Virus record (IMG/VR): IMGVR_UViG_2531839486_000019
Location: 1-38,567 of that record
Origin: a virus
Lineage: Duplodnaviria > Heunggongvirae > Uroviricota > Caudoviricetes
Reading direction: 5' to 3' (one strand)
DNA: 38,567 bases
Made by a program: the position numbers and the translations under genes. The first letter of the stretch is position 1. Each line of letters opens with the position of its first letter. Below the pieces are notes generated by a model, which was given only the letters and a program-made list of their open reading frames with translations, searched no databases and was not told the DNA's origin. This document shows positions 1 through 33,602 of this stretch, one piece after another.

Positions 1-516
1 ATGAAATTTAAAAAATGTCTTCTGCCTGTGGCAATGTTAGCGTCATTCACTCTGGCAGGATGCCAGTCAAATGCTGACGATCATGCTGCCGATGTTTATC
101 AAACCGATCAACTGAATACCAAACAAGAAACTAAAACCGTTAATATTATTTCCATTCTTCCCGCAAAAGTTGCCGTAGACAACTCCCAAAATAAACGGAA
201 CGCACAAGCCTTCGGCGCGCTTATTGGCGCAGTCGCTGGCGGTGTTATCGGCCACAACGTCGGGTCTGGCAGCAATTCCGGAACGACGGCAGGGGCAGTT
301 GGCGGCGGAGCTGTAGGCGCGGCAGCGGGTTCTATGGTGAATGATAAAACCTTAGTGGAAGGTGTTTCTTTAACCTATAAGGAAGGCACCAAAGTGTATA
401 CCTCTACCCAGGTGGGTAAAGAGTGCCAGTTTACGACAGGTTTAGCCGTTGTTATTACCACGACGTATAACGAAACGCGTATTCAGCCAAATACCAAATG
501 TCCTGAAAAGAGCTAA
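1..516 (+). CDS. Gly/Ala-rich (glycine-zipper) lipoprotein, SlyB/YcfJ-like; probably host or prophage-flank gene
   Basis: ATG at 1; signal peptide with lipobox L-A-G-C; GAVAGGVIGH and GGGAVGAAAG glycine-zipper stretches; RBS not visible at window edge. Confidence 0.6.
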   Translation: MKFKKCLLPVAMLASFTLAGCQSNADDHAADVYQTDQLNTKQETKTVNIISILPAKVAVDNSQNKRNAQAFGALIGAVAGGVIGHNVGSGSNSGTTAGAVGGGAVGAAAGSMVNDKTLVEGVSLTYKEGTKVYTSTQVGKECQFTTGLAVVITTTYNETRIQPNTKCPEKS

Positions 517-3060: not shown

Positions 3061-3148
3061 CGTTTAATGTGCATAAAGAACCCCCTTAGTTGGTGAGTTC
3101 ATCATACACAATAAACCATATCTGGATTAATAATCACCAGATTTATCC

Positions 3149-3177
3149 TAGTCAAATTACCTTTTGGGTGATATAGT
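3149..3177 (+). promoter_or_regulatory. candidate promoter of the acyltransferase gene with operator-like dyad in the spacer
   Basis: -35-like TAGTCA (3149-3154), 17-bp spacer containing TTACC-TTTTG-GGTGA (3157-3171), -10 TATAGT (3172-3177). Confidence 0.4.
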
Positions 3178-3204: not shown

Positions 3205-4215
3205 ATGAACATGAAAACATTAAATGGATTAACTATTTTCAGGTTTGTAGCTGCGTTTTATGTATTTATATTTCACTGCAATATCAGATTCCCAGCAGAA
3301 ATTGGTGATTTTCTAAACAGAATTGTTAAGAATGGTGCAATTGGAATGACATTCTTTTTTGTTCTGTCTGGTTTTGTCATGGCATGGTCATCGCAAGGTG
3401 GGGTGAAGTCTGATTATTTTGCGCGTCGCTTAAGGAGAATTTACCCAGCGTATATTTTTATGGGATTGGTGAGTCTCCCATTTATTATTGATTTAAAGCC
3501 ACAGCAAATCGTTCCATCTTTATTAATGTTCATTACTGGAACTCAGGCATGGATACCTTCTTCATTTTCACTATGGAACTTCATTGGTTCGTGGTCGGTA
3601 TCGACTGAGCTATTTTTTTATGCAACGTTCCCTATCTTGTTCCCATTGATTAAGAAAAGACCAGGGGCCTTTCTTCTTTCATCATTGGCTGTAACTTCAC
3701 TGCTGGTTCCGTTCTCTATAATGCTTGGGAGCGGCTCACAGTTCCCTTTGTTCTATGTCAGCCCAATCCACCGGCTACCTGAGTTTATCATTGGCGTATG
3801 CGCTGGGGTTTACTTTACCAATGGGATAAGGTTATCGCGTCGCAATAGTGTTCTCCTTATTGCATTATCATTATTAACATTAACAGTAATATCAACAAGA
3901 ATGAATTCTGGGTTTATGACTATGAATTTATTCACAGTCCCAGCCACTGCCATACTCATTTTTTCTCTTGCATCTTTAAATGTGAGAGATGATGGATTAG
4001 CGGCGCTTCCCATATACTTTGGAAAAATTAGCTACTCTTTCTATTTGATGCAGATACCATTGATAATGTTTATCGAAAAATATCATTACCTGTTTAATGA
4101 TATGAATACGTTATCATGCTGGGTAGGCATGTTTATAGCTAACACAATAATGGCATGCATATCTTATCACTTCGTAGAAGAAGCCTTTATGAAAATGAAA
4201 TACCAATCCGCCTAA
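3205..4215 (+). CDS. acyltransferase family 3 membrane protein (OafA/Oac-like O-antigen acetyltransferase candidate); lysogenic-conversion cargo
   Basis: 336 aa multi-TM protein with N-terminal acyltransferase-3 signature (FRFVAAFYVFIFHC, FFVLSGFV); opposite strand to late genes; AT-rich; next to tailspike. Confidence 0.8.
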   Translation: MNMKTLNGLTIFRFVAAFYVFIFHCNIRFPAEIGDFLNRIVKNGAIGMTFFFVLSGFVMAWSSQGGVKSDYFARRLRRIYPAYIFMGLVSLPFIIDLKPQQIVPSLLMFITGTQAWIPSSFSLWNFIGSWSVSTELFFYATFPILFPLIKKRPGAFLLSSLAVTSLLVPFSIMLGSGSQFPLFYVSPIHRLPEFIIGVCAGVYFTNGIRLSRRNSVLLIALSLLTLTVISTRMNSGFMTMNLFTVPATAILIFSLASLNVRDDGLAALPIYFGKISYSFYLMQIPLIMFIEKYHYLFNDMNTLSCWVGMFIANTIMACISYHFVEEAFMKMKYQSA

Positions 4216-6536: not shown

Positions 6537-6614
6537 GTTAAATCTCCAGATAGTCGCAGCACCCGTTGCGCCGCATATCTGGTTATTCTATTACCTGAAA
6601 AACCACATATGGAT

Positions 6615-6656
6615 AGACAACCCATAAATAAGAACAGATATTACCTTTCAGGTGAT
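6615..6656 (+). promoter_or_regulatory. candidate promoter plus operator-like dyad upstream of the 85-aa plus-strand gene
   Basis: -35-like TAGACA (6615-6620), 17-bp spacer, -10-like GATATT (6638-6643) overlapping dyad TTACC-TTTCA-GGTGA (6642-6656). Confidence 0.4.
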
Positions 6657-6731
6657 TCGCAAAACGTGCTGGATAGCAAACAAATTATTTGCTACTGTAT
6701 AAATATACAGTTATTGCATGGAGAAGATAAG

Positions 6732-6989
6732 ATGCAGCAGTATCACTATCCACTGGAAGACGGATTTACCGAAAGGATTCACACGCCGGGAGGCGTCAGA
6801 TCACTAGTGGAGGGATCGCACTTGATGAAATTACTCCGGGATCTCGATAAGGATGGATTTAATGTCGATGGCCCACTTGCCGAACTGACTGCACTGATTA
6901 ACTACGTCACCAGCTCACAGATGTCTATGCAGGATCTGCAAACACATCTCGACTATTGTGCCGAACAATTACGAAAACAAACTACATAA
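6732..6989 (+). CDS. hypothetical 85-aa protein (cargo gene on opposite strand to late genes)
   Basis: internal ATG at 6732 preceded by GGAGAAG; the longer track ORF from 6609 lacks an RBS; TAA at 6987-6989. Confidence 0.5.
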   Translation: MQQYHYPLEDGFTERIHTPGGVRSLVEGSHLMKLLRDLDKDGFNVDGPLAELTALINYVTSSQMSMQDLQTHLDYCAEQLRKQTT

Positions 6990-6990
6990 A

Positions 6991-7012
6991 GAAAAGGCCG
7001 CGAAAGCGGCCT
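6991..7012 (-). terminator. rho-independent terminator acting on the minus strand
   Basis: stem aggccgc / gcggcct with GAAA loop; on the minus strand it is followed by TTTTCTTT. Confidence 0.5.
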
Positions 7013-7020
7013 GTGACATG

Positions 7021-7317
7021 TCACGTTCCTTTTCTGAATGCTAGCCATTCGAAAAATGATGACATTCCACCGCAGACAATAGCAAAGATGATCCCACCAA
7101 AGAAGAGAAGGCCAGCCTGCCACCACTCCCACCGCCATACATCCACAGCGCCAACCATACCAACAATCGCTCCAACAAATGGAATATAGCTCACGATGAA
7201 AGCAATGGGGGCTGCAATTATCCAGTGCAATCCCCACCATGATTCAAGCCCAGCCATAATTGCTGCCAACTGAAAAAGACCAACGACGATATAAACAATG
7301 AATCCTATAGCTTGCAT
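7021..7317 (-). CDS. small membrane protein (3 predicted TM helices), function unknown
   Basis: ATG at 7315-7317 with RBS AGGTGA; the N-terminal extension of the track ORF is unsupported; hydrophobic, Trp-rich. Confidence 0.5.
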   Translation of the reverse strand: MQAIGFIVYIVVGLFQLAAIMAGLESWWGLHWIIAAPIAFIVSYIPFVGAIVGMVGAVDVWRWEWWQAGLLFFGGIIFAIVCGGMSSFFEWLAFRKGT

Positions 7318-7513
7318 GTAGTCACCTAATTTACCCAGTAAAAATAAGAGGCCTCCCCTCAATAAGGCTTGCAACAAGAACGACTCCCTGCACAACAAAG
7401 ATGAACCAGCAAATAGCTTGAGTCTGAGGGTTAAGAAAATATTTGTAGCGGTCAATAAATAACAATCCACCAGAAATTATCACACTCAAAATAATTAAAA
7501 ACACAACACTTCC

Positions 7514-19110: not shown

Positions 19111-19548
19111 TTAACCAGTTACTTTTGAGCGGATCGGATACGGCGTATTGGCATCAACATCAAGACTGATACCCGCAGTGAATTCGCCAGCCGTTAGTGG
19201 GCCAGTTGCGACGGAGTAGTTAACGCGCAGATATCGCTGAACACCGGCAGGCACCTTTGCAGAAACAACTCGTTTACCTGCTGTCAGGGCGGTCTTTGCC
19301 AGTGCGCCACTATCATAAATAGTGGTCCATGAGCTGTTATTCTCACTCGTCTGCAACTGGATGTTTACAGTTGCATCACCGCTTGCCGCGGCGGCTGTGT
19401 TAACCAGCGCCCAAAACTCAAGCGGGTAACCCACGCCGATATCACGACGTTTTCCGTCAATTGGACCGAGATCGATTACGTCAGTAGAAGCCGCGGTATT
19501 CGTAACCGCCTGAGCTTCGGAGAACATCAACAGTTTGTCGGTGATCAT
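19111..19548 (-). CDS. hypothetical structural protein (capsid decoration candidate)
   Basis: ATG 19546-19548 with RBS GGAGA; lies directly after the major capsid gene. Confidence 0.5.
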   Translation of the reverse strand: MITDKLLMFSEAQAVTNTAASTDVIDLGPIDGKRRDIGVGYPLEFWALVNTAAAASGDATVNIQLQTSENNSSWTTIYDSGALAKTALTAGKRVVSAKVPAGVQRYLRVNYSVATGPLTAGEFTAGISLDVDANTPYPIRSKVTG

Positions 19549-23492: not shown

Positions 23493-23560
23493 ATCAATGA
23501 CTCCGTACGCAATTAAATTATTACCAATTTAACCACATATGATTTATTTATCGTAGATAG

Positions 23561-24566: not shown

Positions 24567-24586
24567 CACCGTGACATGTCACAAAC

Positions 24587-24614
24587 AGCCAGCCGATGAG
24601 CTGGCTTTGTTTTA
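24587..24614 (+). terminator. rho-independent terminator of the plus-strand cargo gene
   Basis: stem agccagc / gctggct, loop cgatga, then TTGTTTTA. Confidence 0.6.
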
Positions 24615-24656: not shown

Positions 24657-26132
24657 TTAAGCATACGGGTCATAATCTGTGATGGCCTTGCCTTGCTGGT
24701 TCTGCTGCCCAGGAATTCGCAGACGCTTCGACACAGGGAAAGCAAACGTCAGCAGTAGCGCATCGCCTTTACCCGGCGAACGCCCAAGTCGCTCTTTGAT
24801 ATCTTCCTTCGGTTCGATAACGATTTTACCGTCCACTCGAACTTTATACTCTGCCGCCGACAGGTCGTCCGCTGTTTCCTGGTCATCCAGCATCCCGCCG
24901 AGCCTCAGCCATGTCTTACATGAGTTGAACATCTCCCCACGCTTGTTAAGCATCTGCGGGTCAGTGGACGCACCGCCGAACGGAACAAGTTGCCATGTAC
25001 GTCCCCAGCCATCACCGATTGACTTCAGACCAGTTCCGTAACCGAAGTCGATGAACACTGCGTCAGCCTGGTACTGGTCTTCAAAGTCAGCGATACGCTT
25101 CGCCATTATCAGATCGTCAGTGGTCTTGTTGCCAGTCCATAGCACCTTACTATGCAACCCCTGCCGCAGGTATATCACCGCGTCATCAACGCCTGAATAT
25201 GCCGGGTCAACACCGATTATCACCGGAGCATGTGCCACCTGCGCAGCGGTTACCACCCGTTTCATTGCCTCATCAGTAAGACCGGTAGGGATAAACTGCA
25301 ATTCAGATGCATCAGGGAATATGCCGCGCACACGGATTTTAACGAAGTCGCTGTCTTCCCCGTAGTCATCAACCCATTTCTGCAACTGCTGTTTGTTAGT
25401 ACCTTCCACCGTCCGGCTGTCTATCTGCGCACACTTCCAGCGGTGCTTGTATTTGCGGAAGCATTCACGGAATCGCCCGGTATTACGCGTCGGGTTTCCG
25501 AACGCCACCCAAATAATCTCAGTGTCTTCGTCCGTAAGCGCACCCTCAGCAACTTCCCACACCAGATCCGCAATGTTCGACGCTTCATCAAACACCACGA
25601 TGATGCGTTTGCGCTCGTTGTGTAGTCCCGCGAACGCCTCAGTGTTGTGCTCAGACCAGGGGATTGCGTCAGCTCGCCACCGCTTGTCGTGCCCAGGATC
25701 ATTGCTGTACATCGCGGTAGCGGTACAGGTAAACCAGTCTTTCGTGATAGCAAGGTTCGACCACTTGATAATTTCCGGCCAGGTCTTCGTTCGTAGCTGG
25801 TTGTCGGTGTTGGCGGTCACCACGACCTTACAATCCTCGCAAGTGGACATGCCCCAGTTGATCAGCATTGAGATGAATGCGGATTTACCAATACCGTGAC
25901 CAGAAGCGCGTGCCAGCATAAGCGGCTGATAACGCGTCTCTGGATTCTGCAGGTGATCACGTATCTCTCGGAACGCATCGGCCTGCCACTGACGTGGGCC
26001 GGTAGCATGTGCCAGTTCAGTCCCCTCTTCCCCCCACGGGAACGCATAGAGGGCATAGCCAAGCGGATCGTGAGTGAACCCTGCAATATCCTCGATTAAC
26101 TGCTCTTCAGGAGATAACGCTGTATCTGTCAC
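24657..26132 (-). CDS. terminase large subunit
   Basis: 491 aa with N-terminal ATPase (Walker A-like GHGIGKS) and C-terminal nuclease-like region; GTG start overlaps small-subunit stop (GTGA). Confidence 0.9.
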   Translation of the reverse strand: MTDTALSPEEQLIEDIAGFTHDPLGYALYAFPWGEEGTELAHATGPRQWQADAFREIRDHLQNPETRYQPLMLARASGHGIGKSAFISMLINWGMSTCEDCKVVVTANTDNQLRTKTWPEIIKWSNLAITKDWFTCTATAMYSNDPGHDKRWRADAIPWSEHNTEAFAGLHNERKRIIVVFDEASNIADLVWEVAEGALTDEDTEIIWVAFGNPTRNTGRFRECFRKYKHRWKCAQIDSRTVEGTNKQQLQKWVDDYGEDSDFVKIRVRGIFPDASELQFIPTGLTDEAMKRVVTAAQVAHAPVIIGVDPAYSGVDDAVIYLRQGLHSKVLWTGNKTTDDLIMAKRIADFEDQYQADAVFIDFGYGTGLKSIGDGWGRTWQLVPFGGASTDPQMLNKRGEMFNSCKTWLRLGGMLDDQETADDLSAAEYKVRVDGKIVIEPKEDIKERLGRSPGKGDALLLTFAFPVSKRLRIPGQQNQQGKAITDYDPYA

Positions 26133-26725
26133 TGATTACCATCCTGACGTTCTTTGAGTCGCTTCCTGGCTGCTGCTATGCGATCAGCAATTGTCACATT
26201 CACATTAACATCCAGACGTTCTTTGAACGCGTTGACATCAACATGCTTACCAATCAGCTCAAGGTTCTTCACCTTGTCCGGCCATTTGATTTTTTTGAGG
26301 ATTGTCTCTATCGAATCCTCGTTCATGTTCATGATGGTCGATGACAGATCAAAGCCGCTAAGCGTAGTGCGCCAGATTTTCGGCCACTCGCGGATTGGTT
26401 TAAGGCTCCCATCGTCGTTGAGGATGTCGATCACGTCCATCTGGTCGATCTCCACCAGGCGCATGAGAACGTAATCAGCACTGACGCGCATTCGTTTGTT
26501 GCGTTCCTCCATCAGCTCGGCAATCCGTTTCTGAATGCGTTCATCTCGCATCATGACACTGGCTTTAACTGCCGCTGTATTTGGGGAGAATCCTGCGTTA
26601 ATCGCTGCCTGAGTCTGGTTTTCAGGCGTTTTGATGTATGACTGGCAATAAGCCTCCTGCATTGCTGTTAGTGGCTTAAATTGCGTTGATTTGCGTTTAT
26701 AGGTTTTAGTTTCAGCAGGCATCAT
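26129..26725 (-). CDS. terminase small subunit
   Basis: start moved to ATG 26723-26725 (MMPAETK...); the upstream 26 track codons translate a tandem DNA repeat and are unlikely coding. Confidence 0.7.
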   Translation of the reverse strand: MMPAETKTYKRKSTQFKPLTAMQEAYCQSYIKTPENQTQAAINAGFSPNTAAVKASVMMRDERIQKRIAELMEERNKRMRVSADYVLMRLVEIDQMDVIDILNDDGSLKPIREWPKIWRTTLSGFDLSSTIMNMNEDSIETILKKIKWPDKVKNLELIGKHVDVNAFKERLDVNVNVTIADRIAAARKRLKERQDGNQ

Positions 26726-26732
26726 AACCACC

Positions 26733-26764
26733 GTGGTAATAGTTACCGTTGTGGTAATAGTACC
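26733..26764. repeat. tandem direct repeat GTGGTAATAG(T)TACC x2 immediately upstream of the terminase small gene
   Basis: copies at 26733-26747 and 26751-26764; each is itself a GGTAA...TTACC dyad. Confidence 0.6.
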
Positions 26765-26768
26765 ATGC

Positions 26769-26794
26769 AAAATAAAGCCGCCATAGTTGGCGGC
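26769..26794 (-). terminator. hairpin plus T-run (minus strand) just upstream of the terminase operon
   Basis: stem gccgcca / tggcggc with tagt loop; on the minus strand it is followed by TTTATTTT. Confidence 0.45.
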
Positions 26795-26843
26795 AGTATT
26801 CAAAACACATCAAATTCATCATGCATAATCTACTCGTGACATG

Positions 26844-27185
26844 TCACACTATTAATTTCGTTTCATGCCAGCCTTTAGTCACCCAGCATTGCGAGTCACC
26901 ATTACACGGGCATGAATTAACTGGAACTCTCTCGCCGCACTTACCGCAACGTTTTCTGCTGATCGATTTTATACGCCCGCGCACGCGTGCATCATCCTGG
27001 CGGATCAGTAACGCTATATACTCACCAAATTCGTAAGGCGCACGCCCGGGGCGACGCGTGGCACAGTTACGCTCCAGCATTTCAATTTCCTGAGCATCAA
27101 GCACAATCTCCAGCTTACGCACACCAGATGCAGCTTGTCTGGCTCTCTGAGCGGCTTTGCGCTCTGCTGCTGATTTAGCCATCAA
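26844..27185 (-). CDS. Cys-rich zinc-finger protein; candidate late-gene regulator (position of lambda Q)
   Basis: 113 aa; basic N-terminus and C-terminal cluster CGKCGERVPVNSCPCNGDSQC; last early gene before the terminases. Confidence 0.5.
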   Translation of the reverse strand: MMAKSAAERKAAQRARQAASGVRKLEIVLDAQEIEMLERNCATRRPGRAPYEFGEYIALLIRQDDARVRGRIKSISRKRCGKCGERVPVNSCPCNGDSQCWVTKGWHETKLIV

Positions 27186-27456
27186 TATTCACCTTTATCG
27201 CGTACACCTTTACCGGTTTATCGCCGAAGTGCAGATGTGTGATTGTCTTGATTTCATACCCGTCATACGGAACATCAATTCTGCGGCTGGAATCGTCGCG
27301 CTTCGGGGATCCCTTTGTGATAATCAGGCGGTCATACTCCCGGAACATAATTCGCTTATTCCAGTAGTCATTACACAGGCGATACTCTTCCGTTTTCTCT
27401 CCGCGAATCATGGCATCGAAGTATTCACCTTTGACAGCAAGTTGCAGGTTAGCCAT
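27175..27456 (-). CDS. hypothetical protein, possible ASCH/PUA-like fold
   Basis: ATG 27454-27456 (MANLQLAVKGEYFDAMIRGEKTEEYR...); overlaps upstream stop. Confidence 0.45.
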   Translation of the reverse strand: MANLQLAVKGEYFDAMIRGEKTEEYRLCNDYWNKRIMFREYDRLIITKGSPKRDDSSRRIDVPYDGYEIKTITHLHFGDKPVKVYAIKVNIDG

Positions 27457-27716
27457 TACCGCACCTCCAGTCTCCATACCGCCTGACCAATCCGGCTGGC
27501 ATAGGTATCTTTGGATACTGCTCCGTCTTTAGCCAGCTCCATAAGAATTTTGCGCAAATCTGCCGAACGCCATTCTTCATCAGGAAATTCCTTCTCCATT
27601 GCCAACCGCAGATTCCAGGTTGCTATCGTGAATGGATATTCCCCGCCGAGAGCTTTCTCTTGCAGGGCAGCACGGGAACGCATCACCTGCAAAACCTTCT
27701 CTTTTACATCCATCAT
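27456..27716 (-). CDS. hypothetical protein
   Basis: 86-aa ORF in the nin-like region; overlapping start/stop with neighbours. Confidence 0.45.
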   Translation of the reverse strand: MMDVKEKVLQVMRSRAALQEKALGGEYPFTIATWNLRLAMEKEFPDEEWRSADLRKILMELAKDGAVSKDTYASRIGQAVWRLEVR

Positions 27717-28309: not shown

Positions 28310-29131
28310 TCACTCTCCTTTGATGCGAATGCCAGCGGCGCGGATAGATTTCCATTGTTCCCACATTCGGTTGAAGTCTGTGCCTGATAAGGTTGCGTTA
28401 CGGTATCCGGTTTCGGTGCGCAATCCTTCAAGTGTCGATTTGGAAATACAAATTGAATGCATTACCCATGATTCAAACAAGTCACGCTCCCGAGCTTCGC
28501 AACTTTGTTTACTCATCTCTTCGATGCATTGTTTAGCTTCTAAATCAGCAATTCTGTCAACCACGGCATCAACGGCATCAGAAAAGTCGAACCAGTTACT
28601 CCACTCCGGCCTATCACCGGTTGCTGCAAAGTACATATCAGCTAAAGCAGACTCAGCATGGTCACGCTCGTTAATGAGTTGCTCTTCGCTTTTCTCCAGT
28701 TCAGCAATACGCTTACTTCCATCCGAGATAACACCTTCGTAATACTCGCGCTGCTCGTTGAGTTTTGATTTTGTCTCCTCAAGCTCAACACGCAGCTTCC
28801 CTACCGTTAGCGCAATATCCTCGTTCTCCTGGTCGCGGCGTTTGATGTATTGCTGGTTTCTTTCCCGTTCATCCAGCAGCGCCAGCACGGTAGCCGGATT
28901 GGCTGCGGCGATGAATTCAGCATTGGCCTGCTGTTCCATTTGGAAATCTTCATCGAAACCGCTTTCTGGATGCGCTCCTTCAATTCTGCAAATGGGAATA
29001 TATCCAGCAGCCTCGCGATGAATTAGTGCATCATCACCATCAAATCGGCCCTCTCCATATTCGAGCGACCACACACCACACGTTGCTTTTTCTGCCTTGG
29101 CACGCAGTGCCTGATAGTCAATCTTGCTCAT
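28310..29131 (-). CDS. Ead/Ea22-like protein
   Basis: N-terminus MSKIDYQALRAKAEKATCGVW and coiled-coil middle typical of lambdoid Ea22-like proteins. Confidence 0.7.
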   Translation of the reverse strand: MSKIDYQALRAKAEKATCGVWSLEYGEGRFDGDDALIHREAAGYIPICRIEGAHPESGFDEDFQMEQQANAEFIAAANPATVLALLDERERNQQYIKRRDQENEDIALTVGKLRVELEETKSKLNEQREYYEGVISDGSKRIAELEKSEEQLINERDHAESALADMYFAATGDRPEWSNWFDFSDAVDAVVDRIADLEAKQCIEEMSKQSCEARERDLFESWVMHSICISKSTLEGLRTETGYRNATLSGTDFNRMWEQWKSIRAAGIRIKGE

Positions 29132-30419: not shown

Positions 30420-30496
30420 TTACCTCTGAGGTAATTAAAAACCACATAAGACACGAAATCAATAGATTTTAGAATATTTTATTACCTAACAGGTAA
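30420..30496 (+). promoter_or_regulatory. regulatory module between the P-like gene and nin genes: two operator-like dyads flanking AACCACATA
   Basis: TTACC-TCTGA-GGTAA (30420-30434); AACCACATA (30440-30448); TTACC-TAACA-GGTAA (30482-30496). Confidence 0.45.
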
Positions 30497-30533
30497 TTGT
30501 CGAGGCGTAAAAAAATGCGCTATCGCGCTGGTA

Positions 30534-31334
30534 TTACTTGATAAATCCTGCCGCCTTTCCTCGCCTGTATTCCTCCATCAGCCACTGCGCCGGTGTTATT
30601 CCACCAAGGGTGGCGGCGTTAGGCATGCACCCGAAACTTCGCCCTGGTGGATGGTAAACGTCTCTCCCTGTGTCCGGAGGTGTACTCATGGGTTCTGGCT
30701 TTGCCTGTATGCTGATCACCGGATCGGGTATCTGCTGTCCGGAAGCCACCTTTTTCGCCCAATCATCGAGCAGCCTGCGCGCGTGTTTCTCAACCTCAAT
30801 CTCGCTAAGCTGGCGCTGATACATTGCACGGCGGGTATCACATACGACCCAGTACATAACCGGATGTCGCCACGGGAATCTTTCGGGACCACCAGGATAT
30901 AAACTTTTTTCCTTGCTGTACCGGTTAAACTCCGCCATCACATCGTCAATGGTGACGCCAAGAACCATCTTGCTGTCTTTACACCACTTGATGAATTGCC
31001 CAGGCGACGGCCAGAACGGAGATTCACTGGCGCGGGCGTGGCGCATACCAGCAGAAACCTGTTCACGGGTTCGGATCCCCCCTTCGGCAAACGCAGCAAT
31101 CCACTGCTGTTTTGCAGCAACTTCCTGCTCTGGCGTCTTCAGGTTGGTTACCACTGCCGCCGGAAACAGTTGTTTCAGCTGTTTGAAAAGGGCATCAACA
31201 AGCCTCTCTGCTGACATGTTCACCACGTTATCATTGTTGGTGTACTGATGCTCATAACCTGACATGCGAGAAAGGGCTTCTCCGTCACGGTTTTGTATCG
31301 CGGTAAAAACGTTGTTCACAAGAAATCCTCCCAT
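30534..31334 (-). CDS. replication protein P-like (lambda P family helicase loader)
   Basis: QQWIAAFAEGGIRTREQVSAGMRHARASESPFWPSPGQFIKWCKD closely matches remembered lambda P region RQWVLAFRENGITTMEQVNAGMRVARRQNRPFLPSPGQFVAWCRE. Confidence 0.8.
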   Translation of the reverse strand: MGGFLVNNVFTAIQNRDGEALSRMSGYEHQYTNNDNVVNMSAERLVDALFKQLKQLFPAAVVTNLKTPEQEVAAKQQWIAAFAEGGIRTREQVSAGMRHARASESPFWPSPGQFIKWCKDSKMVLGVTIDDVMAEFNRYSKEKSLYPGGPERFPWRHPVMYWVVCDTRRAMYQRQLSEIEVEKHARRLLDDWAKKVASGQQIPDPVISIQAKPEPMSTPPDTGRDVYHPPGRSFGCMPNAATLGGITPAQWLMEEYRRGKAAGFIK

Positions 31335-32131
31335 GCTTCAGGGCTGTTCCAGTGCGGAACGTTGTTATCAGGTAATGTTGATTGCTTCTGTCTGCTAATC
31401 TGCAGCCTCCTTGCCAGCTTCTGCTCCCACTGTGCCTGATGGTATGCCTTACCCTCAGCCATCCAGTAAATTCTGAACTCTGCAAGTTCCTGTGCCGTTG
31501 GCAGACTGTCCAGGTAGATCCCCTGCAATGAGCTTTTCCGAAGAAAGTCATCTGATGGCTGCCATTGTTCATGCATGACAAATTTGCCTAATTGCCCTGG
31601 CCCACCAGGAGGAACAAAGTTATTCATCACGGCGTTGTTTGCGCCGGGGTCATGAGGCACAGAATCCCCGCTTTTTGTCCTGCTCTCCCTCTCTTGGTTA
31701 AATGACTGGTTATATGACTGGTTCTGGATCCCGTTTTTGGGATCATTCAACATCCCGTTTTTGGGATCATTCAACATCCCGTTTTTGGGTATATTCCCGT
31801 TTTCGGGTATATTCCCGTTTTCTGGTTCATTGCCCCCCTCCCGGTTGCCTTTAATGTTCCCGTTTTTGGTTATATTAAGAGAGAAAACCCGCACTCTTTT
31901 TGTCGCTCCCTTTCTATCTCCGGTATCTGAAATAAGCCCCATTTTCATGAGCGATATAAGCCCGGCCTGCACGGTTTTTTTATTCAGGCAAGTGTCTTTA
32001 ACGAGTCGTTCTATGCTGGGGTAGCAGAGGTTATATTCATCGGCTCTGTCAGCCATCGAGAGCAGTATGAGCTTTAATGATGAGCTGCCTGGATCTGTCT
32101 CCCAGGCCCAATCTGTTGCATGTCTGCTCAT
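31316..32131 (-). CDS. replication initiator (lambda O-like) with origin iterons inside the gene
   Basis: N-terminal HTH-like domain, central peptide repeats (NGNIPENGNIPKNGMLNDPKNGMLNDP) encoded by DNA iterons, followed by the P-like gene. Confidence 0.7.
   Translation of the reverse strand: MSRHATDWAWETDPGSSSLKLILLSMADRADEYNLCYPSIERLVKDTCLNKKTVQAGLISLMKMGLISDTGDRKGATKRVRVFSLNITKNGNIKGNREGGNEPENGNIPENGNIPKNGMLNDPKNGMLNDPKNGIQNQSYNQSFNQERESRTKSGDSVPHDPGANNAVMNNFVPPGGPGQLGKFVMHEQWQPSDDFLRKSSLQGIYLDSLPTAQELAEFRIYWMAEGKAYHQAQWEQKLARRLQISRQKQSTLPDNNVPHWNSPEAWEDFL
31703..31890. repeat. putative origin of replication: iteron array plus AT-rich tract
   Basis: ATGACTGGTT x2 (31703-31724); GGATCATTCAACATCCCGTTTTTG x2 (31741-31788) with partial copy at 31727-31740; GGTATATTCCCGTTTTC x2 (31789-31825); CCCGTTTT core six times; AT-rich 31871-31890. 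Confidence 0.65.
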
Positions 32132-32146
32132 GATTAATCTCCGCTA

Positions 32147-32347
32147 TCAGCTTGAATGTTGTGGGGGGGAATTAATCATGATCTGCTTAATCTCTGCCCT
32201 GATGCGACGGTTTGATTCCATGGTGCACTCAACACAGTGTCCGTTGTAAACCCAGCGTTCACTGTCATGTCCGTGCTTACATGGTTTTCCGGTGTAGTAG
32301 CGTTTAAGTCCGCGCTTTGCGGCATCAATACGTGTAATGATTTCCAT
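32147..32347 (-). CDS. small zinc-ribbon protein (position of lambda cII; function unknown)
   Basis: ATG 32345-32347 (MEIITRIDAAKRGLKRYYTGKPCKHGHDSERWVYNGHCVEC); my reading of the displayed bases at 32402-32410 does not reproduce the first three residues of the track ORF, so the longer start is not used. Confidence 0.4.
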   Translation of the reverse strand: MEIITRIDAAKRGLKRYYTGKPCKHGHDSERWVYNGHCVECTMESNRRIRAEIKQIMINSPPQHSS

Positions 32348-32426
32348 GGTAAGCCCTGTTATTAGTATTGGGATTACGGTTATTTTGTGCTGACACAAAA
32401 AAAAGATCAACCAAATTTGGTTTTTT

Positions 32427-32441
32427 ATTACCTTTGAGGTG
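32427..32441. promoter_or_regulatory. operator-like dyad between the Cro-like gene and the next early gene
   Basis: TTACC-TTTGA-GGTGA; preceded by perfect palindrome AACCAAATTTGGTT. Confidence 0.4.
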
Positions 32442-32497
32442 AGAATAGATATGAAAAGACCGCCGGATGACGGTCTACAGAGGGTTGTGGCTGGATA

Positions 32498-32728: not shown

Positions 32729-32773
32729 AGCTATTGCCTGATATTTATTTCAGATAATAAATATTCACCCATA

Positions 32774-32882: not shown

Positions 32883-33467
32883 ATGAAAAGTATCCAGGAC
32901 GTCCGCAGGCAAAATCTCAACGACTTGATCGACCGTGAATTCAATGGTGTTCAGACGCGGATGGCAGAAAAACTTGGAACTCAGGCAAATCTGGTAAACC
33001 GCTGGGCTCTTGGCAAGAAGGTTATCGGCGACCAGGTTGCGCGAAAAATTGAAGCTGCCGCCAATAAACCCCGTAACTGGCTTGATATCGATCGCTCGCT
33101 TTCTCAGGAAGGTTTTCAGCCTGTCGGCCCAAGCGACATTGGTCAGCTGGCGGCTCACAACCTGGAACGCTGGATGAGCGAAAGCCGCGACCTTTCAACA
33201 CAGGGAAAACTTCACCGCGCATCCGGCGTCGCCCAGGTGACAATCAGCCGCCTGTTAAACAATGAGGTCAGCGTTTCCATTTCCACCCTGGAGAATGTTG
33301 CATCTGCATTCGGGCGTCACGGATATGAACTACTGATTCACCCGCACGACCCTGCAACTATCAACTATGACCGCTCGCGCTACGCATTATTACCTGAAAC
33401 CGAGAAAGCAAAGATCGAAAGTTACATTGAATTTGTCATCAACCAGAACGAAAAAAACAAACAATAA
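32883..33467 (+). CDS. CI-like repressor candidate with HTH domain(s) and no recognisable LexA/S24 cleavage domain
   Basis: XRE-type HTH (GVQTRMAEKLGTQANLVNRWALGKK) and a second HTH-like stretch; no Ala-Gly/Ser-Lys peptidase motifs seen; divergent from Cro-like gene. Confidence 0.55.
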   Translation: MKSIQDVRRQNLNDLIDREFNGVQTRMAEKLGTQANLVNRWALGKKVIGDQVARKIEAAANKPRNWLDIDRSLSQEGFQPVGPSDIGQLAAHNLERWMSESRDLSTQGKLHRASGVAQVTISRLLNNEVSVSISTLENVASAFGRHGYELLIHPHDPATINYDRSRYALLPETEKAKIESYIEFVINQNEKNKQ

Positions 33468-33488
33468 AATCATATTTTTCAGTAAGTA

Positions 33489-33525: not shown

Positions 33526-33602
33526 TTACCTTACAGGTAATTTTTTTAACTCATATCTATTGACATCAAACCAAATACGCATAATTATTACCTCAACGGT
33601 AA
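33526..33602 (+). promoter_or_regulatory. pL-like early-left promoter with two operator-like dyads
   Basis: dyad TTACC-TTACA-GGTAA (33526-33540); -35 TTGACA (33560-33565); 17-bp spacer; -10 AATTAT (33583-33588) overlapped by dyad TTACC-TCAAC-GGTAA (33588-33602). Confidence 0.5.

What the first reader, a model, noticed from the sequence alone, without database searches (positions are those of the whole stretch)
26733..27185. Zinc-finger gene, hairpin terminator and tandem repeats directly upstream of the terminase genes
The last early-region gene encodes a small basic protein with a C-terminal Cys cluster. Then, in the minus direction, come the palindrome (26836-26847), a hairpin with a T-run (26769-26794) and two tandem GTGGTAATAG(T)TACC repeats (26733-26764), then the terminase small-subunit start. 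This resembles a lambda Q / late promoter / terminator arrangement but could instead be activator-dependent, and the repeats could be part of a packaging site.
Basis: inference. Interest (0 to 1): 0.5.

Follow-up and report, generated by a model that had tools for sequence, protein, structure and literature searches.

The report
Operon junction upstream of phage terminase
This is the boundary between two repressor-controlled operons of an epsilon15/phiV10-type prophage: the "tandem repeats" are prophage-repressor operators over the terminase promoter, which is ordinary, and the small zinc protein is a DNA binder of unknown role whose gene carries a conserved palindrome across distant phages.

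Summary
The window is a Uetakevirus (epsilon15/phiV10-like) prophage.

- **The repeats.** The "tandem repeats" are two adjacent copies of a 15-bp inverted repeat, TTACC-N5-GGTAA. It occurs 13 times in the window against 0.56 expected. Copies flank the SPC32H-type repressor gene and overlap promoters. At terS they overlap a conserved extended -10 (TGnTAYTAT) and the ribosome-binding site. GenBank already annotates the epsilon15 equivalent as a repressor site. They are operators, not a packaging site.
- **The hairpin.** It is a real intrinsic terminator that ends the preceding operon.
- **The protein.** The 112-aa protein is not Q-like or Ogr-like. It has a ribbon-helix-helix fold plus a Cys4 zinc module (phrog_536; epsilon15 gp49, N15 gp46).
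- **The palindrome.** GTGACATGTCAC embeds the gene's stop codon and occurs exactly three times (0.01 expected), each time beside a terminator. GTGAC-NN-GTCAC accompanies the gene family in N15-like, Pectobacterium and Vibrio phages. It is probably the protein's binding site; its function is unresolved.

A lambda Q / late-promoter reading is not supported. The spacer between palindrome and terminator is the remnant of a gene. N15, Kpn74 and ZF40 also carry an annotated Q-like gene.

The parts
26844..27182 (-). Gene for a 112-aa basic protein with an N-terminal ribbon-helix-helix fold and a C-terminal Cys4 zinc module (phrog_536; homologue of epsilon15 gp49, phiV10 gp55, N15 gp46). Its start overlaps the stop of the upstream ASCH-like gene by 8 nt.
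26836..26847 (.). PAL-A: perfect 12-bp palindrome GTGACATGTCAC with the gene's TGA stop codon embedded. Probable binding site of the 112-aa protein.
   Evidence: Exact copies 3 against 0.01 expected. Found at the same position in epsilon15, PAT1, a Klebsiella prophage and ZF40. Found as GTGAC-NN-GTCAC in N15-like, Kpn74 and Vibrio phages.
26795..26835 (-). 41-nt spacer. It is the degenerate remnant of a 70-aa gene that sits here in related prophages, not a conserved promoter.
   Evidence: L048 and 36 other loci have PAL, then an SD, then a 70-aa ORF whose 3' end (GATGAATTTGATGGACTTTGAATACTGCC) matches the window spacer. The spacer is 24 nt and unrelated in epsilon15.
26769..26794 (-). Intrinsic terminator (7-bp stem with 6 G-C pairs, 4-nt loop, then TTTATTTT). 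It ends the operon that starts at the promoter at 30503-30476.
   Evidence: Terminator scan. MFE fold. Conserved in epsilon15 and PAT1, and annotated as a terminator in the epsilon15 and phiV10 records.
26757..26765 (-). Candidate extended -10 promoter of the terS-terL operon: TGgTACTAT.
   Evidence: TG-n-TA(C/T)TAT is invariant in the window, PAT1, the Klebsiella prophage and four IMG/VR variants, while n varies G/A/T. No -35 element was identified. Inference only; no transcript data.
26743..26757 (.). Operator O1: TTACCACAACGGTAA, a perfect match to the dispersed motif. It abuts the -10 and covers the predicted transcription start.
   Evidence: The equivalent epsilon15 site (12..27) is annotated 'protein_bind: repressor'.
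26725..26739 (.). Operator O2: TTACCACGGTGGTTA (1 mismatch), 18 bp from O1. It overlaps the terS Shine-Dalgarno (GGTGG) and abuts the ATG.
   Evidence: Epsilon15 has TTACTTCGGTGGTAA at the same place.
26129..26725 (-). Terminase small subunit gene (start ATG 26725 or 26722). terL follows at 24657-26132.
   Evidence: Pfam Terminase_2 E 1e-29. phrog_51. The epsilon15 start aligns with the second ATG.
24571..24582 (.). PAL-B: second exact copy of the palindrome, 4 nt from the bidirectional terminator hairpin at 24587-24606. It lies between the end of terL and a convergent plus-strand gene.
   Evidence: A syntenic copy is in epsilon15 at 2142-2153.
7013..7024 (.). PAL-C: third exact copy. It embeds the TGA stop of the last gene of the head/tail operon (7021-7470) and abuts the terminator at 6995-7012. 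On the other side lies the convergent LexA-controlled ant gene.
   Evidence: A syntenic copy is in epsilon15 at 19517-19528.
32883..33467 (+). Prophage repressor (SPC32H Rep type), the protein most likely to bind the TTACC-N5-GGTAA operators. Operators flank it at 32765, 32813, 33526 and 33588.
   Evidence: PDB 5d50_A E 4e-42. 42% identical to the epsilon15 repressor, with the stretch NLVNRW identical in the alignment. Operator positions.
30476..30503 (-). Promoter TCGACA-16-TAAAAT with an operator filling the spacer, just after a terminator. It starts the operon that ends with the 112-aa gene.
   Evidence: One of the two best-scoring promoter-like sites (10/12) in the right half of the window. 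Operator at 30482-30496.

Best explanation
The region is the junction between two repressor-controlled transcription units of an epsilon15/phiV10-type temperate podophage.

1. The 112-aa gene is the last gene of an early/middle operon driven by the operator-bearing promoter at 30503-30476. It encodes a dimeric-type DNA binder: a ribbon-helix-helix fold plus a Cys4 zinc module.
2. Its stop codon lies inside a 12-bp palindrome, GTGACATGTCAC. This is most likely the protein's own binding site. It recurs at two other operon ends, each beside an intrinsic terminator.
3. The hairpin and T-run terminate that operon.
4. Directly after the terminator, terS-terL has its own extended -10 promoter (TGgTACTAT). 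Two adjacent 15-bp operators, TTACC-N5-GGTAA, cover its start site and the terS ribosome-binding site.
5. The SPC32H-type Rep repressor binds this motif at about a dozen promoters across the genome. The packaging operon is therefore switched off directly in the lysogen. It is released when the LexA-controlled antirepressor Ant inactivates Rep.

Shown here: the sequence features, their copy numbers, their conservation, the folds and the homologies.

Inferred: which protein binds which motif, the promoter, and the role of the palindrome. My best guess for that role is a boundary element. The bound protein would modulate RNA polymerase passage (insulation or read-through) at operon ends.
For: Repeats as operators:
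- The motif occurs 13 times against 0.56 expected in the window, and 15 times against 0.66 in epsilon15 at syntenic places.
- Sites lie on both sides of the repressor gene and overlap core promoter elements. At 30503-30476 the operator fills the spacer of TCGACA-16-TAAAAT. At 33560-33588 one operator begins at the last base of the scanned -10 hexamer of TTGACA-17-AATTAT, and another lies just upstream. The rightward promoter has one in its spacer.
- Across relatives the half-sites are invariant while the N5 spacer varies.
- The epsilon15 record annotates the equivalent sites as repressor sites.
- The window encodes a Rep homologue (5d50_A, E 4e-42) and an Ant homologue (5d50_E, E 1e-47) with a LexA box upstream.

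Promoter: TGnTAYTAT is invariant in seven sequences from three lineages.

Terminator: plus the GenBank annotation.

Palindrome linked to the gene:
- Exact copies 3 against 0.01 expected; in N15, 3 against 0.05.
- It lies at or next to the gene's 3' end in 49 of 54 distinct downstream contexts, and further downstream in 2 more.
- It is present in ZF40, Kpn74 and three Vibrio-type lineages. In two protein clusters it lies inside the coding 3' end, read as Val-Thr-Gly-His.
- The central dinucleotide differs between lineages but is identical among copies within a genome.
Against: - No binding, transcript or genetic data exist for any step.
- Assigning TTACC-N5-GGTAA to Rep and the palindrome to the 112-aa protein rests on position and co-occurrence. 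The reverse assignment, or binding by Cro or a host factor, is not excluded.
- Two homologue-bearing loci, Yersinia Firavirus and Aeromonas 85AhydR10PP, show no GTGAC-NN-GTCAC near the gene.
- The palindrome's position relative to terminators is inconsistent. It is upstream of the hairpin at A and C, downstream at B, and 24 to 240 nt away at A in relatives. No single transcriptional mechanism fits all copies.
- In N15 the other two copies lie in a promoter-like spacer and inside repA, not at terminators.
- The extended -10 promoter has no -35 and could be weak or need activation.
Confidence: 0.6

Rival explanations
1. Site-specific antitermination, the closest surviving form of the first reader's idea. 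The 112-aa protein accumulates as the last product of the early/middle operon and binds the palindromes beside terminators A, B and C. It then lets RNA polymerase from the strong upstream promoter read through into terS-terL, the head/tail operon and beyond. This would give delayed high-level late expression on top of weak operator-controlled promoters.
For: - The gene is the last one before the first late gene in Uetakeviruses. In two Vibrio-type phages the order is gene, palindrome, 190-250 nt, strong terminator, holin.
- All three palindromes in the window and in epsilon15 lie within 41 nt of strong terminators at successive operon junctions.
- No Q- or N-like protein was found among the early genes scanned against PHROGs or Pfam.
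- The late promoters look weak by eye compared with the early ones.
- The helix-plus-zinc part has weak sequence similarity to the RNA-polymerase-binding TraR/DksA zinc finger, E about 0.06.
Against: - PAL-B lies downstream of its hairpin in the late direction.
- The distance from PAL-A to the terminator varies from 24 to 240 nt, and a gene intervenes in many relatives.
- In N15, Kpn74 and ZF40 the homologue coexists with an annotated Q-like gene. In N15 the annotated late promoter-terminator has no palindrome.
- Fold searches did not recover TraR or DksA.
- I know of no precedent for a DNA-tethered RHH antiterminator.
Confidence: 0.15
2. Late-acting repressor or roadblock. The protein binds the palindromes and blocks RNA polymerase. 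It would reinforce terminators at operon ends, for example stopping SOS-induced ant transcription from running antisense into the late operon. In N15 it would shut off the antirepressor operon, repA and gene 47.
For: - RHH proteins are mostly repressors (established knowledge of the Arc/MetJ/CopG superfamily).
- In N15 one palindrome sits in the spacer of a promoter-like TGTGCA-17-TAAAAT upstream of the antirepressor operon, by my own reading of the sequence. Another lies inside repA.
- PAL-B and PAL-C lie in convergent intergenic regions next to bidirectional terminators, one beside ant.
- In N15-like phages and in 37 E. coli prophages the palindrome sits 2-4 nt before the SD of the next gene.
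Against: - A single 12-bp site for one dimer is a weak roadblock.
- A roadblock is redundant next to strong terminators.
- It does not explain why the site is tied to the 3' end of the protein's own gene in so many lineages.
Confidence: 0.2
3. The repeats, the palindrome or both are part of the packaging recognition (pac) site bound by the small terminase.
For: - They lie directly upstream of terS.
- PAL-A and PAL-B flank terS-terL.
- In Vibrio phage K233 a palindrome copy lies 20 nt upstream of terS.
- The phiV10 and epsilon15 records are linearised here.
Against: - The repeat motif occurs 13 times across the genome, including the immunity region, and overlaps promoters.
- The palindrome occurs three times, travels with the 112-aa gene rather than with terS, and is present in cos phage N15 far from its terminase genes.
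- The record ends coincide with a gene stop or a terminator end. I take that as an annotator's choice rather than mapped DNA ends.
Confidence: 0.04
4. Classical late activator of the Ogr/Delta or P1 Lpa type. The zinc protein would bind upstream of late promoters and recruit RNA polymerase.
For: - A small zinc-containing protein encoded just before the late genes.
- In a Yersinia P2-like phage the homologue follows replication gene A, where (from memory) phage 186 has its late activator gene B.
- The candidate late promoter lacks a -35.
Against: - No Ogr_Delta similarity, and a different Cys spacing.
- The palindromes lie 85, about 975 and about 360 bp from the next downstream operator-associated promoter, so there is no fixed activator geometry.
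- No palindrome at the lysis promoter or at the N15 late promoter.
Confidence: 0.08

Closest known systems
SPC32H-type Rep/Ant immunity system of epsilon15-like Salmonella podophages (PDB 5D50), with the dispersed 'repressor' sites annotated in the epsilon15 genome record AY150271
   Same: The window encodes Rep (E 4e-42) and Ant (E 1e-47) homologues, with a LexA box before ant. The same 15-bp inverted repeat sits at syntenic places in epsilon15, including just upstream of terS. Sites often come in pairs. This fits the tetramer binding to palindromic sites described for SPC32H Rep in PMC9638917, which cites Kim et al. 2016.
   Different: Binding of Rep to TTACC-N5-GGTAA was not tested here, and I could not read the primary papers (not held). 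The window Rep is only 42% identical to the epsilon15 repressor.
Lambda Q / pR' / tR' late-gene antitermination module
   Same: A regulator gene is the last gene before the late genes. It is followed by a cis element attached to the gene and by an intrinsic terminator. The gene and its site travel together as a cassette, as Q and qut do.
   Different: No homology to any Q family, and a different fold (RHH). No conserved promoter between the gene and the terminator. terS has its own operator-controlled promoter after the terminator. The cis element recurs at other operon ends. Homologues coexist with annotated Q-like genes in N15, Kpn74 and ZF40.
Ribbon-helix-helix phage and plasmid regulators (P22 Arc and Mnt, CopG, ParG, TacA/ParD antitoxins)
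   Same: Predicted beta-alpha-alpha fold with an N-terminal basic arm, a short palindromic candidate site, small size and a basic pI.
   Different: A C-terminal Cys4 zinc module (CxxC-x8-CxC-x5-C). The candidate site lies at the 3' end of the gene, with the stop codon embedded, not in its own promoter. Extra copies lie at operon ends.
Dispersed operator systems (P1 C1 operators; mycobacteriophage L5 gp71 'stoperators')
   Same: One repressor motif is scattered across the whole genome at many transcription units, so late operons are repressed directly rather than through a cascade.
   Different: The sites here are symmetric and mostly overlap promoter cores. L5 stoperators are asymmetric, orientation-dependent and act on elongation. 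This comparison rests on my own knowledge, not on tool results.
DksA/TraR C4 zinc-finger RNA-polymerase secondary-channel factors
   Same: A weak profile match (E 0.055-0.083) of the long helix plus CxxCG..lP…C segment to TraR and YbiI.
   Different: The second CxxC pair is absent. The fold searches listed no TraR or DksA chain. There is an N-terminal RHH domain in place of the coiled-coil tip.

Membership tests
Lambda-type Q antiterminator module | Protein homologous to a Q family | tested here: not met
   No Q family in Pfam, PHROGs or NCBIfam for the protein or for 54 diverse relatives. The fold is RHH.
Lambda-type Q antiterminator module | Constitutive sigma-70 promoter with a Q-binding element and a pause signal between the Q gene and the terminator | tested here: not met
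   Only one 9/12 match (GTGACA-18-CATGAT); the 2-kb scan found 1 promoter-like site against 2.7 expected. The spacer is the remnant of a 70-aa gene and is unrelated in epsilon15.
Lambda-type Q antiterminator module | Intrinsic terminator between the regulator gene and the late genes | tested here: met
   Hairpin with 6 G-C pairs plus a T-run at 26794-26769.
Lambda-type Q antiterminator module | Late genes depend on read-through and have no promoter of their own | tested here: inconclusive
   A conserved extended -10 with two operators lies after the terminator. Its activity is unmeasured.
Ogr/Delta zinc-finger late activators | Ogr_Delta domain with CX2C-X22-CX4C | tested here: not met
   No Pfam hit. 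The Cys pattern is CX2C-X8-CXC-X5-C.
Ogr/Delta zinc-finger late activators | Binding site at a fixed position upstream of each late promoter | tested here: not met
   The palindromes lie 85, about 975 and about 360 bp from the next operator-associated promoter, and none is at the lysis promoter.
Ribbon-helix-helix (Arc/MetJ/CopG) DNA-binding superfamily | Beta-strand, helix, helix fold | tested here: met
Ribbon-helix-helix (Arc/MetJ/CopG) DNA-binding superfamily | Dimer that binds a short palindromic or tandem DNA site | not testable with these tools
   The candidate site GTGAC-NN-GTCAC co-occurs with the gene in at least seven lineages. There are no binding data.
DksA/TraR C4 zinc-finger family | CxxC-x17-CxxC zinc finger following a long helix that enters the RNA polymerase secondary channel | tested here: inconclusive
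   Profile match to TraR and YbiI at E 0.055-0.083. The second CxxC is absent. No TraR or DksA chain appeared in the fold searches.
SPC32H/epsilon15-type Rep-Ant immunity with dispersed operators | Rep repressor homologue | tested here: met
   5d50_A E 4e-42 over the full length.
SPC32H/epsilon15-type Rep-Ant immunity with dispersed operators | LexA-controlled Ant antirepressor | tested here: met
   5d50_E E 1.3e-47. LexA box TACTGTATAAATATACAGTT at 6693-6712, upstream of the SD and ATG at 6732.
SPC32H/epsilon15-type Rep-Ant immunity with dispersed operators | Palindromic operator repeated at the divergent promoters flanking the repressor gene and elsewhere | tested here: met
   13 sites against 0.56 expected, at 32765, 32813, 33526, 33588 and at other promoters. 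The sites are syntenic in epsilon15.
SPC32H/epsilon15-type Rep-Ant immunity with dispersed operators | Rep physically binds the motif | not testable with these tools
   Only the GenBank annotation 'protein_bind: repressor' in AY150271.2. The primary papers are not held.
pac site of headful-packaging phages | A unique site in or near terS that directs the first cut | tested here: not met
   Both motifs have multiple copies dispersed across the genome. DNA ends are not testable here.

The most novel reading that the evidence does not exclude
The RHH-zinc protein and its 3'-embedded palindrome form a previously undescribed, widely distributed phage cassette, seen in epsilon15-like, N15-like, Pectobacterium and Vibrio phages. 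It would control RNA polymerase passage at specific operon boundaries from a DNA-bound position. In Uetakeviruses it would be a site-specific antiterminator that replaces Q, switching on late operons by suppressing the terminator next to each palindrome.
Probability: 0.15. Interest if true: 0.75.

Novelty: new variant of a known kind. Interest (0 to 1): 0.4.

Why it matters
**What is ordinary.** Repressor operators over the terminase promoter, and a terminator ending the upstream operon, are routine. The epsilon15 and phiV10 GenBank records already predict them. They do show that this phage group represses its packaging, head/tail, tailspike and lysis operons directly. There are about a dozen Rep operators and no lambda-style cascade. 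That bears on how induction timing is achieved without a recognisable Q or N.

**What is new.** A small family (about 180 clusters at 50% identity) of RHH-zinc proteins carries a GTGAC-NN-GTCAC palindrome at the end of its own gene. The pairing holds in phages as different as epsilon15, N15 and marine Vibrio phages. Each genome has two or three exact copies.

**What it would give.** If the pair proves to be a boundary, termination or read-through control device, it would be a new regulatory part for temperate phages and for phage engineering; phiV10 is, to my knowledge, used as an O157 reporter phage. It would also assign a function to N15 gp46 and epsilon15 gp49.

Tried and rejected
- **N15 centromere sites.** I checked whether the palindrome is the N15 SopB centromere site. 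It is not. The N15 IR1-4 sites are GTGCGACC-NN-GGTCGCAC at 33483, 35934, 41128 and 45565, distinct from the three palindromes.
- **CRP-like site.** TGTGA-N6-TCACA is rejected by eye: the spacing here is 4, not 6.
- **Palindrome as the -35 or spacer of a late promoter.** Hand-found -10-like hexamers follow PAL-A in several phages, but their spacing is inconsistent. They are absent at PAL-C and on the plus side of PAL-B. In many relatives an SD and a gene follow the palindrome directly.
- **First AF2 run.** With 34 close homologues it failed (pLDDT 55). The diverse 54-sequence alignment was needed.
- **The search for related loci.** The diverse alignment had no searchable block. The close alignment returned only relatives 96-100% identical, so it gave no covariation power.
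- **Literature.** I found no study of epsilon15 gp49, N15 gp46 or this family. The epsilon15 genome paper and the SPC32H Rep paper are not held.
- The AFDB50 fold library was unavailable. The PADLOC scan failed on a coordinate error and I did not repeat it.
Full report
**What the window is.** Megablast of 26400-27600 gives 98% identity to E. coli podophages vB_EcoP_PAS61, O157 typing phages 9 and 10, and phiV10. The window is therefore an epsilon15/phiV10-type Uetakevirus genome or prophage. On the minus strand the gene order runs as follows:
- a cro-like gene, replication genes and several small genes;
- the 112-aa gene at 26844-27182;
- terS (Pfam Terminase_2, E 1e-29) and terL;
- a plus-strand insert with a gp49/66-like gene and tRNA-Arg;
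- the portal, head and tail genes, tailspike and lysis genes.

**Checking the observation.**
- The gene product is 112 aa from ATG 27182, with pI 9.8 and Cys at 40, 79, 82, 91, 93 and 99.
- The perfect palindrome GTGACATGTCAC at 26836-26847 overlaps the TGA stop.
- The hairpin GCCGCCAACTATGGCGGC plus TTTATTTT lies at 26794-26769.
- Two GTGGTAATAGT repeats lie 18 bp apart at 26733-26761.
- The terS start is ATG 26725 or 26722. The TTG start at 26803 used in the phiV10 record runs through the terminator and is unlikely.

**The tandem repeats are repressor operators.**
- In epsilon15, PAT1 and a Klebsiella prophage, the sequence upstream of terS keeps an inverted repeat, TTACC-N5-GGTAA.
- In the window this motif occurs 13 times with at most one mismatch, against 0.56 expected. 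In epsilon15 it occurs 15 times against 0.66, at syntenic places.
- Window sites lie at 32765 and 32813, between the cro-like gene and the repressor gene, and at 33526 and 33588 on the other side of the repressor gene. Further sites lie at 30420 and 30482, 26725 and 26743 (the "repeats"), 23583, 6641 and 3157, all in intergenic regions ahead of operons.
- The two best promoter-like matches in the right half of the window both carry operators. TCGACA-16-TAAAAT at 30503-30476 has an operator filling its spacer. At TTGACA-17-AATTAT (33560-33588) one operator begins at the last base of the -10 hexamer.
- The epsilon15 GenBank record already marks these sites, including 12..27 just before terS, as "protein_bind: repressor".
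- The window repressor is a full-length homologue of SPC32H Rep (5d50_A, E 4e-42). It is 42% identical to the epsilon15 repressor, with the stretch NLVNRW identical in the alignment.
- The plus-strand gene at 6732-6989 is the Ant antirepressor (5d50_E, E 1.3e-47) and has a LexA box upstream.
- SPC32H Rep is reported to bind palindromic sites as a tetramer (PMC9638917, citing Kim et al. 2016). That fits the paired sites seen here.

**A promoter for terS after the terminator.** I aligned seven sequences from three lineages. TG-n-TA(C/T)TAT is invariant while n varies, and the operator half-sites are invariant while the N5 spacers vary.
- This is the pattern expected of an extended -10 promoter at 26765-26757.
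- O1 covers the predicted start site, and O2 covers the Shine-Dalgarno GGTGG.
- The same layout, terminator then operator-bearing promoter, is found at 30534-30476.

The genome looks like a set of Rep-controlled operons separated by terminators. There is no transcript evidence for this; the promoter is an inference.

**The protein.**
- It belongs to phrog_536, labelled "transcriptional regulator" (E 1.6e-54), and has no Pfam family.
- There are 726 close homologues in Enterobacteriaceae but only 181 clusters at 50% identity in 1.8 billion proteins.
- C79 and C82 are invariant and C99 nearly invariant across the diverse alignment. C91 and C93 are invariant among close relatives. R8 and R13 in an N-terminal basic helix are nearly invariant.
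- AF2 with the diverse alignment gives pLDDT 93.
- A profile search gives weak matches of the long helix plus zinc segment to TraR and YbiI (E about 0.06). The fold searches do not confirm this.
- It is not related to Q or Ogr.

**The palindrome is a second dispersed motif tied to this gene.**
- The exact 12-mer occurs three times in the window, at 7013, 24571 and 26836, against 0.01 expected. It occurs three times at syntenic positions in epsilon15.
- Each window copy is next to a strong intrinsic terminator. The distances are 41 nt upstream of 26794-26777, 4 nt from 24587-24606, and abutting 7012-6995.
- In two copies a TGA stop codon is embedded in the same register.
- Across phages the motif follows the gene:

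| Phage or group | Motif and position |
|---|---|
| ZF40 | GTGACATGTCAC, 2 nt after the stop |
| N15, about 49 N15-like contigs, Kpn74 | GTGACTGGTCAC with the stop embedded |
| Vibrio phage 10N.237 | GTGACAGGTCAC at the stop |
| Two other Vibrio-type phages | +137 and +225 nt after the stop |
| Two protein clusters (P0153, P0180) | inside the coding 3' end, read as VTGH |

- N15 has three copies against 0.05 expected. They differ from the SopB centromere repeats.
- What follows the palindrome varies completely. It can be a terminator and terS, a 70-aa gene, a LexA-controlled umuD-like gene, or N15 gene 47.
- The central dinucleotide differs between lineages but is the same among copies within a genome.

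The simplest reading is that the palindrome is the protein's cognate site. Two homologue-bearing loci, Yersinia and one Aeromonas phage, lack it nearby.

**What the palindrome-protein pair does is unresolved.**

*A lambda-Q-like module is unlikely.*
- The spacer between PAL-A and the terminator is a gene remnant.
- Its length varies from 24 to 240 nt.
- There is no above-chance promoter in it.
- N15, Kpn74 and ZF40 have annotated Q-like genes as well.

*A fixed-geometry activator is unlikely.* The distances to the next promoters are 85, about 975 and about 360 bp.

*What remains.* Local control of RNA polymerase passage at operon ends, either read-through or insulation, fits the terminator association in Uetakeviruses. 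It also fits the order gene, palindrome, terminator, holin in the Vibrio-type phages. It does not fit the N15 copies. One of those lies in a promoter-like spacer upstream of the antirepressor operon, and one lies inside repA. Nor does it fit PAL-B, which lies downstream of its hairpin. I rate a roadblock or repressor role at about 0.2 and antitermination at about 0.15.

**Verdict.**
- The terminator and the operators are ordinary and were already predicted in the epsilon15 and phiV10 records.
- The packaging-site idea is not supported.
- The conserved pairing of an RHH-zinc gene with a palindrome is a real regularity. I found no description of it in the literature I could search. Its function is unknown, and this is what gives the finding moderate interest.

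Noticed in passing
window 6693-6989 (+): A LexA box (TACTGTATAAATATACAGTT, 6693-6712) precedes an 85-aa gene (ATG 6732). The gene is a close homologue of the SPC32H antirepressor Ant (5d50_E, E 1.3e-47). The longer ORF from 6609 is probably a false start. A Rep-type operator (6641-6655) lies about 40 bp upstream of the LexA box.
   Followed up: yes
window 31738-31781 (+), within the replication initiator gene 31316-32131 (-): Two identical 20-nt units (TGGGATCATTCAACATCCCG) lie 24 bp apart. They match a repeated peptide (NGMLNDPKNG, next to NGNIPENGNIPKNG) in the O-like replication protein. They look like origin iterons inside the initiator gene, as in lambda O.
   Followed up: no
loci L048, L030, L027 and 34 others (IMG/VR E. 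coli prophages), between the palindrome and the terminator: A 70-aa gene (MPKIRYDLEDMRDN…) with its SD 2 nt after the palindrome sits where the window has only a 41-nt remnant. This junction is a hot spot for gene gain and loss.
   Followed up: partly
L006 2790-3190 (Klebsiella phage ST11-OXA245phi3.2): At the same junction there is a umuD-like gene with a perfect LexA box (TACTGTTTAAATATACAGTA) and a TTGACT-17-TACTGT promoter. It lies between the palindrome and the operator and terS.
   Followed up: no
L011 (N15) 28550-28561 and 33237-33248: Two further copies of the N15-type palindrome. One lies in the spacer of a promoter-like TGTGCA-17-TAAAAT, about 115 nt upstream of the terminator that precedes the antirepressor operon (genes 32-30). 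The other lies inside repA. Neither is a SopB centromere site.
   Followed up: partly
window 26129-26803 (-); phiV10 record NC_007804.2 41..715: The RefSeq phiV10 terS CDS uses a TTG start that runs through the terminator hairpin and both operators. The ATG at window 26725/26722, which aligns with the start annotated in epsilon15, is much more likely. Separately, the phiV10 record is linearised inside the palindrome, right after the gp55 stop codon.
   Followed up: partly
window 23530-23560 and 6590-6620 (-), also 30440-30450: A further short conserved element, (C/T)(A/T)TATGTGGTT(T/A)3-5, followed by a half operator (GGTAAT). It occurs downstream of the operators ahead of the portal operon, the tailspike gene and the RusA-like gene. 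It may be part of these promoters or leaders.
   Followed up: no
window 32147-32410 (-): A small protein after the cro-like gene (phrog_1081, unknown function) with a CxxH…CxxC motif (KPCKHGH…HCVEC). This is a second putative zinc-binding early protein. An operator (32428-32442) and a terminator (32476-32457) lie just upstream.
   Followed up: no
window 3149-3177 (+) and about 3100-3157 (-): One operator (3157-3171) sits between divergent promoters. One is an extended -10 (TGATATAGT) for the plus-strand O-antigen acetyltransferase gene (3205-4215). The other is TTGACT-17-TATTAA for the minus-strand lysis operon. One Rep site may control a lysogenic-conversion gene and the lysis genes in opposite ways.
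   Followed up: no
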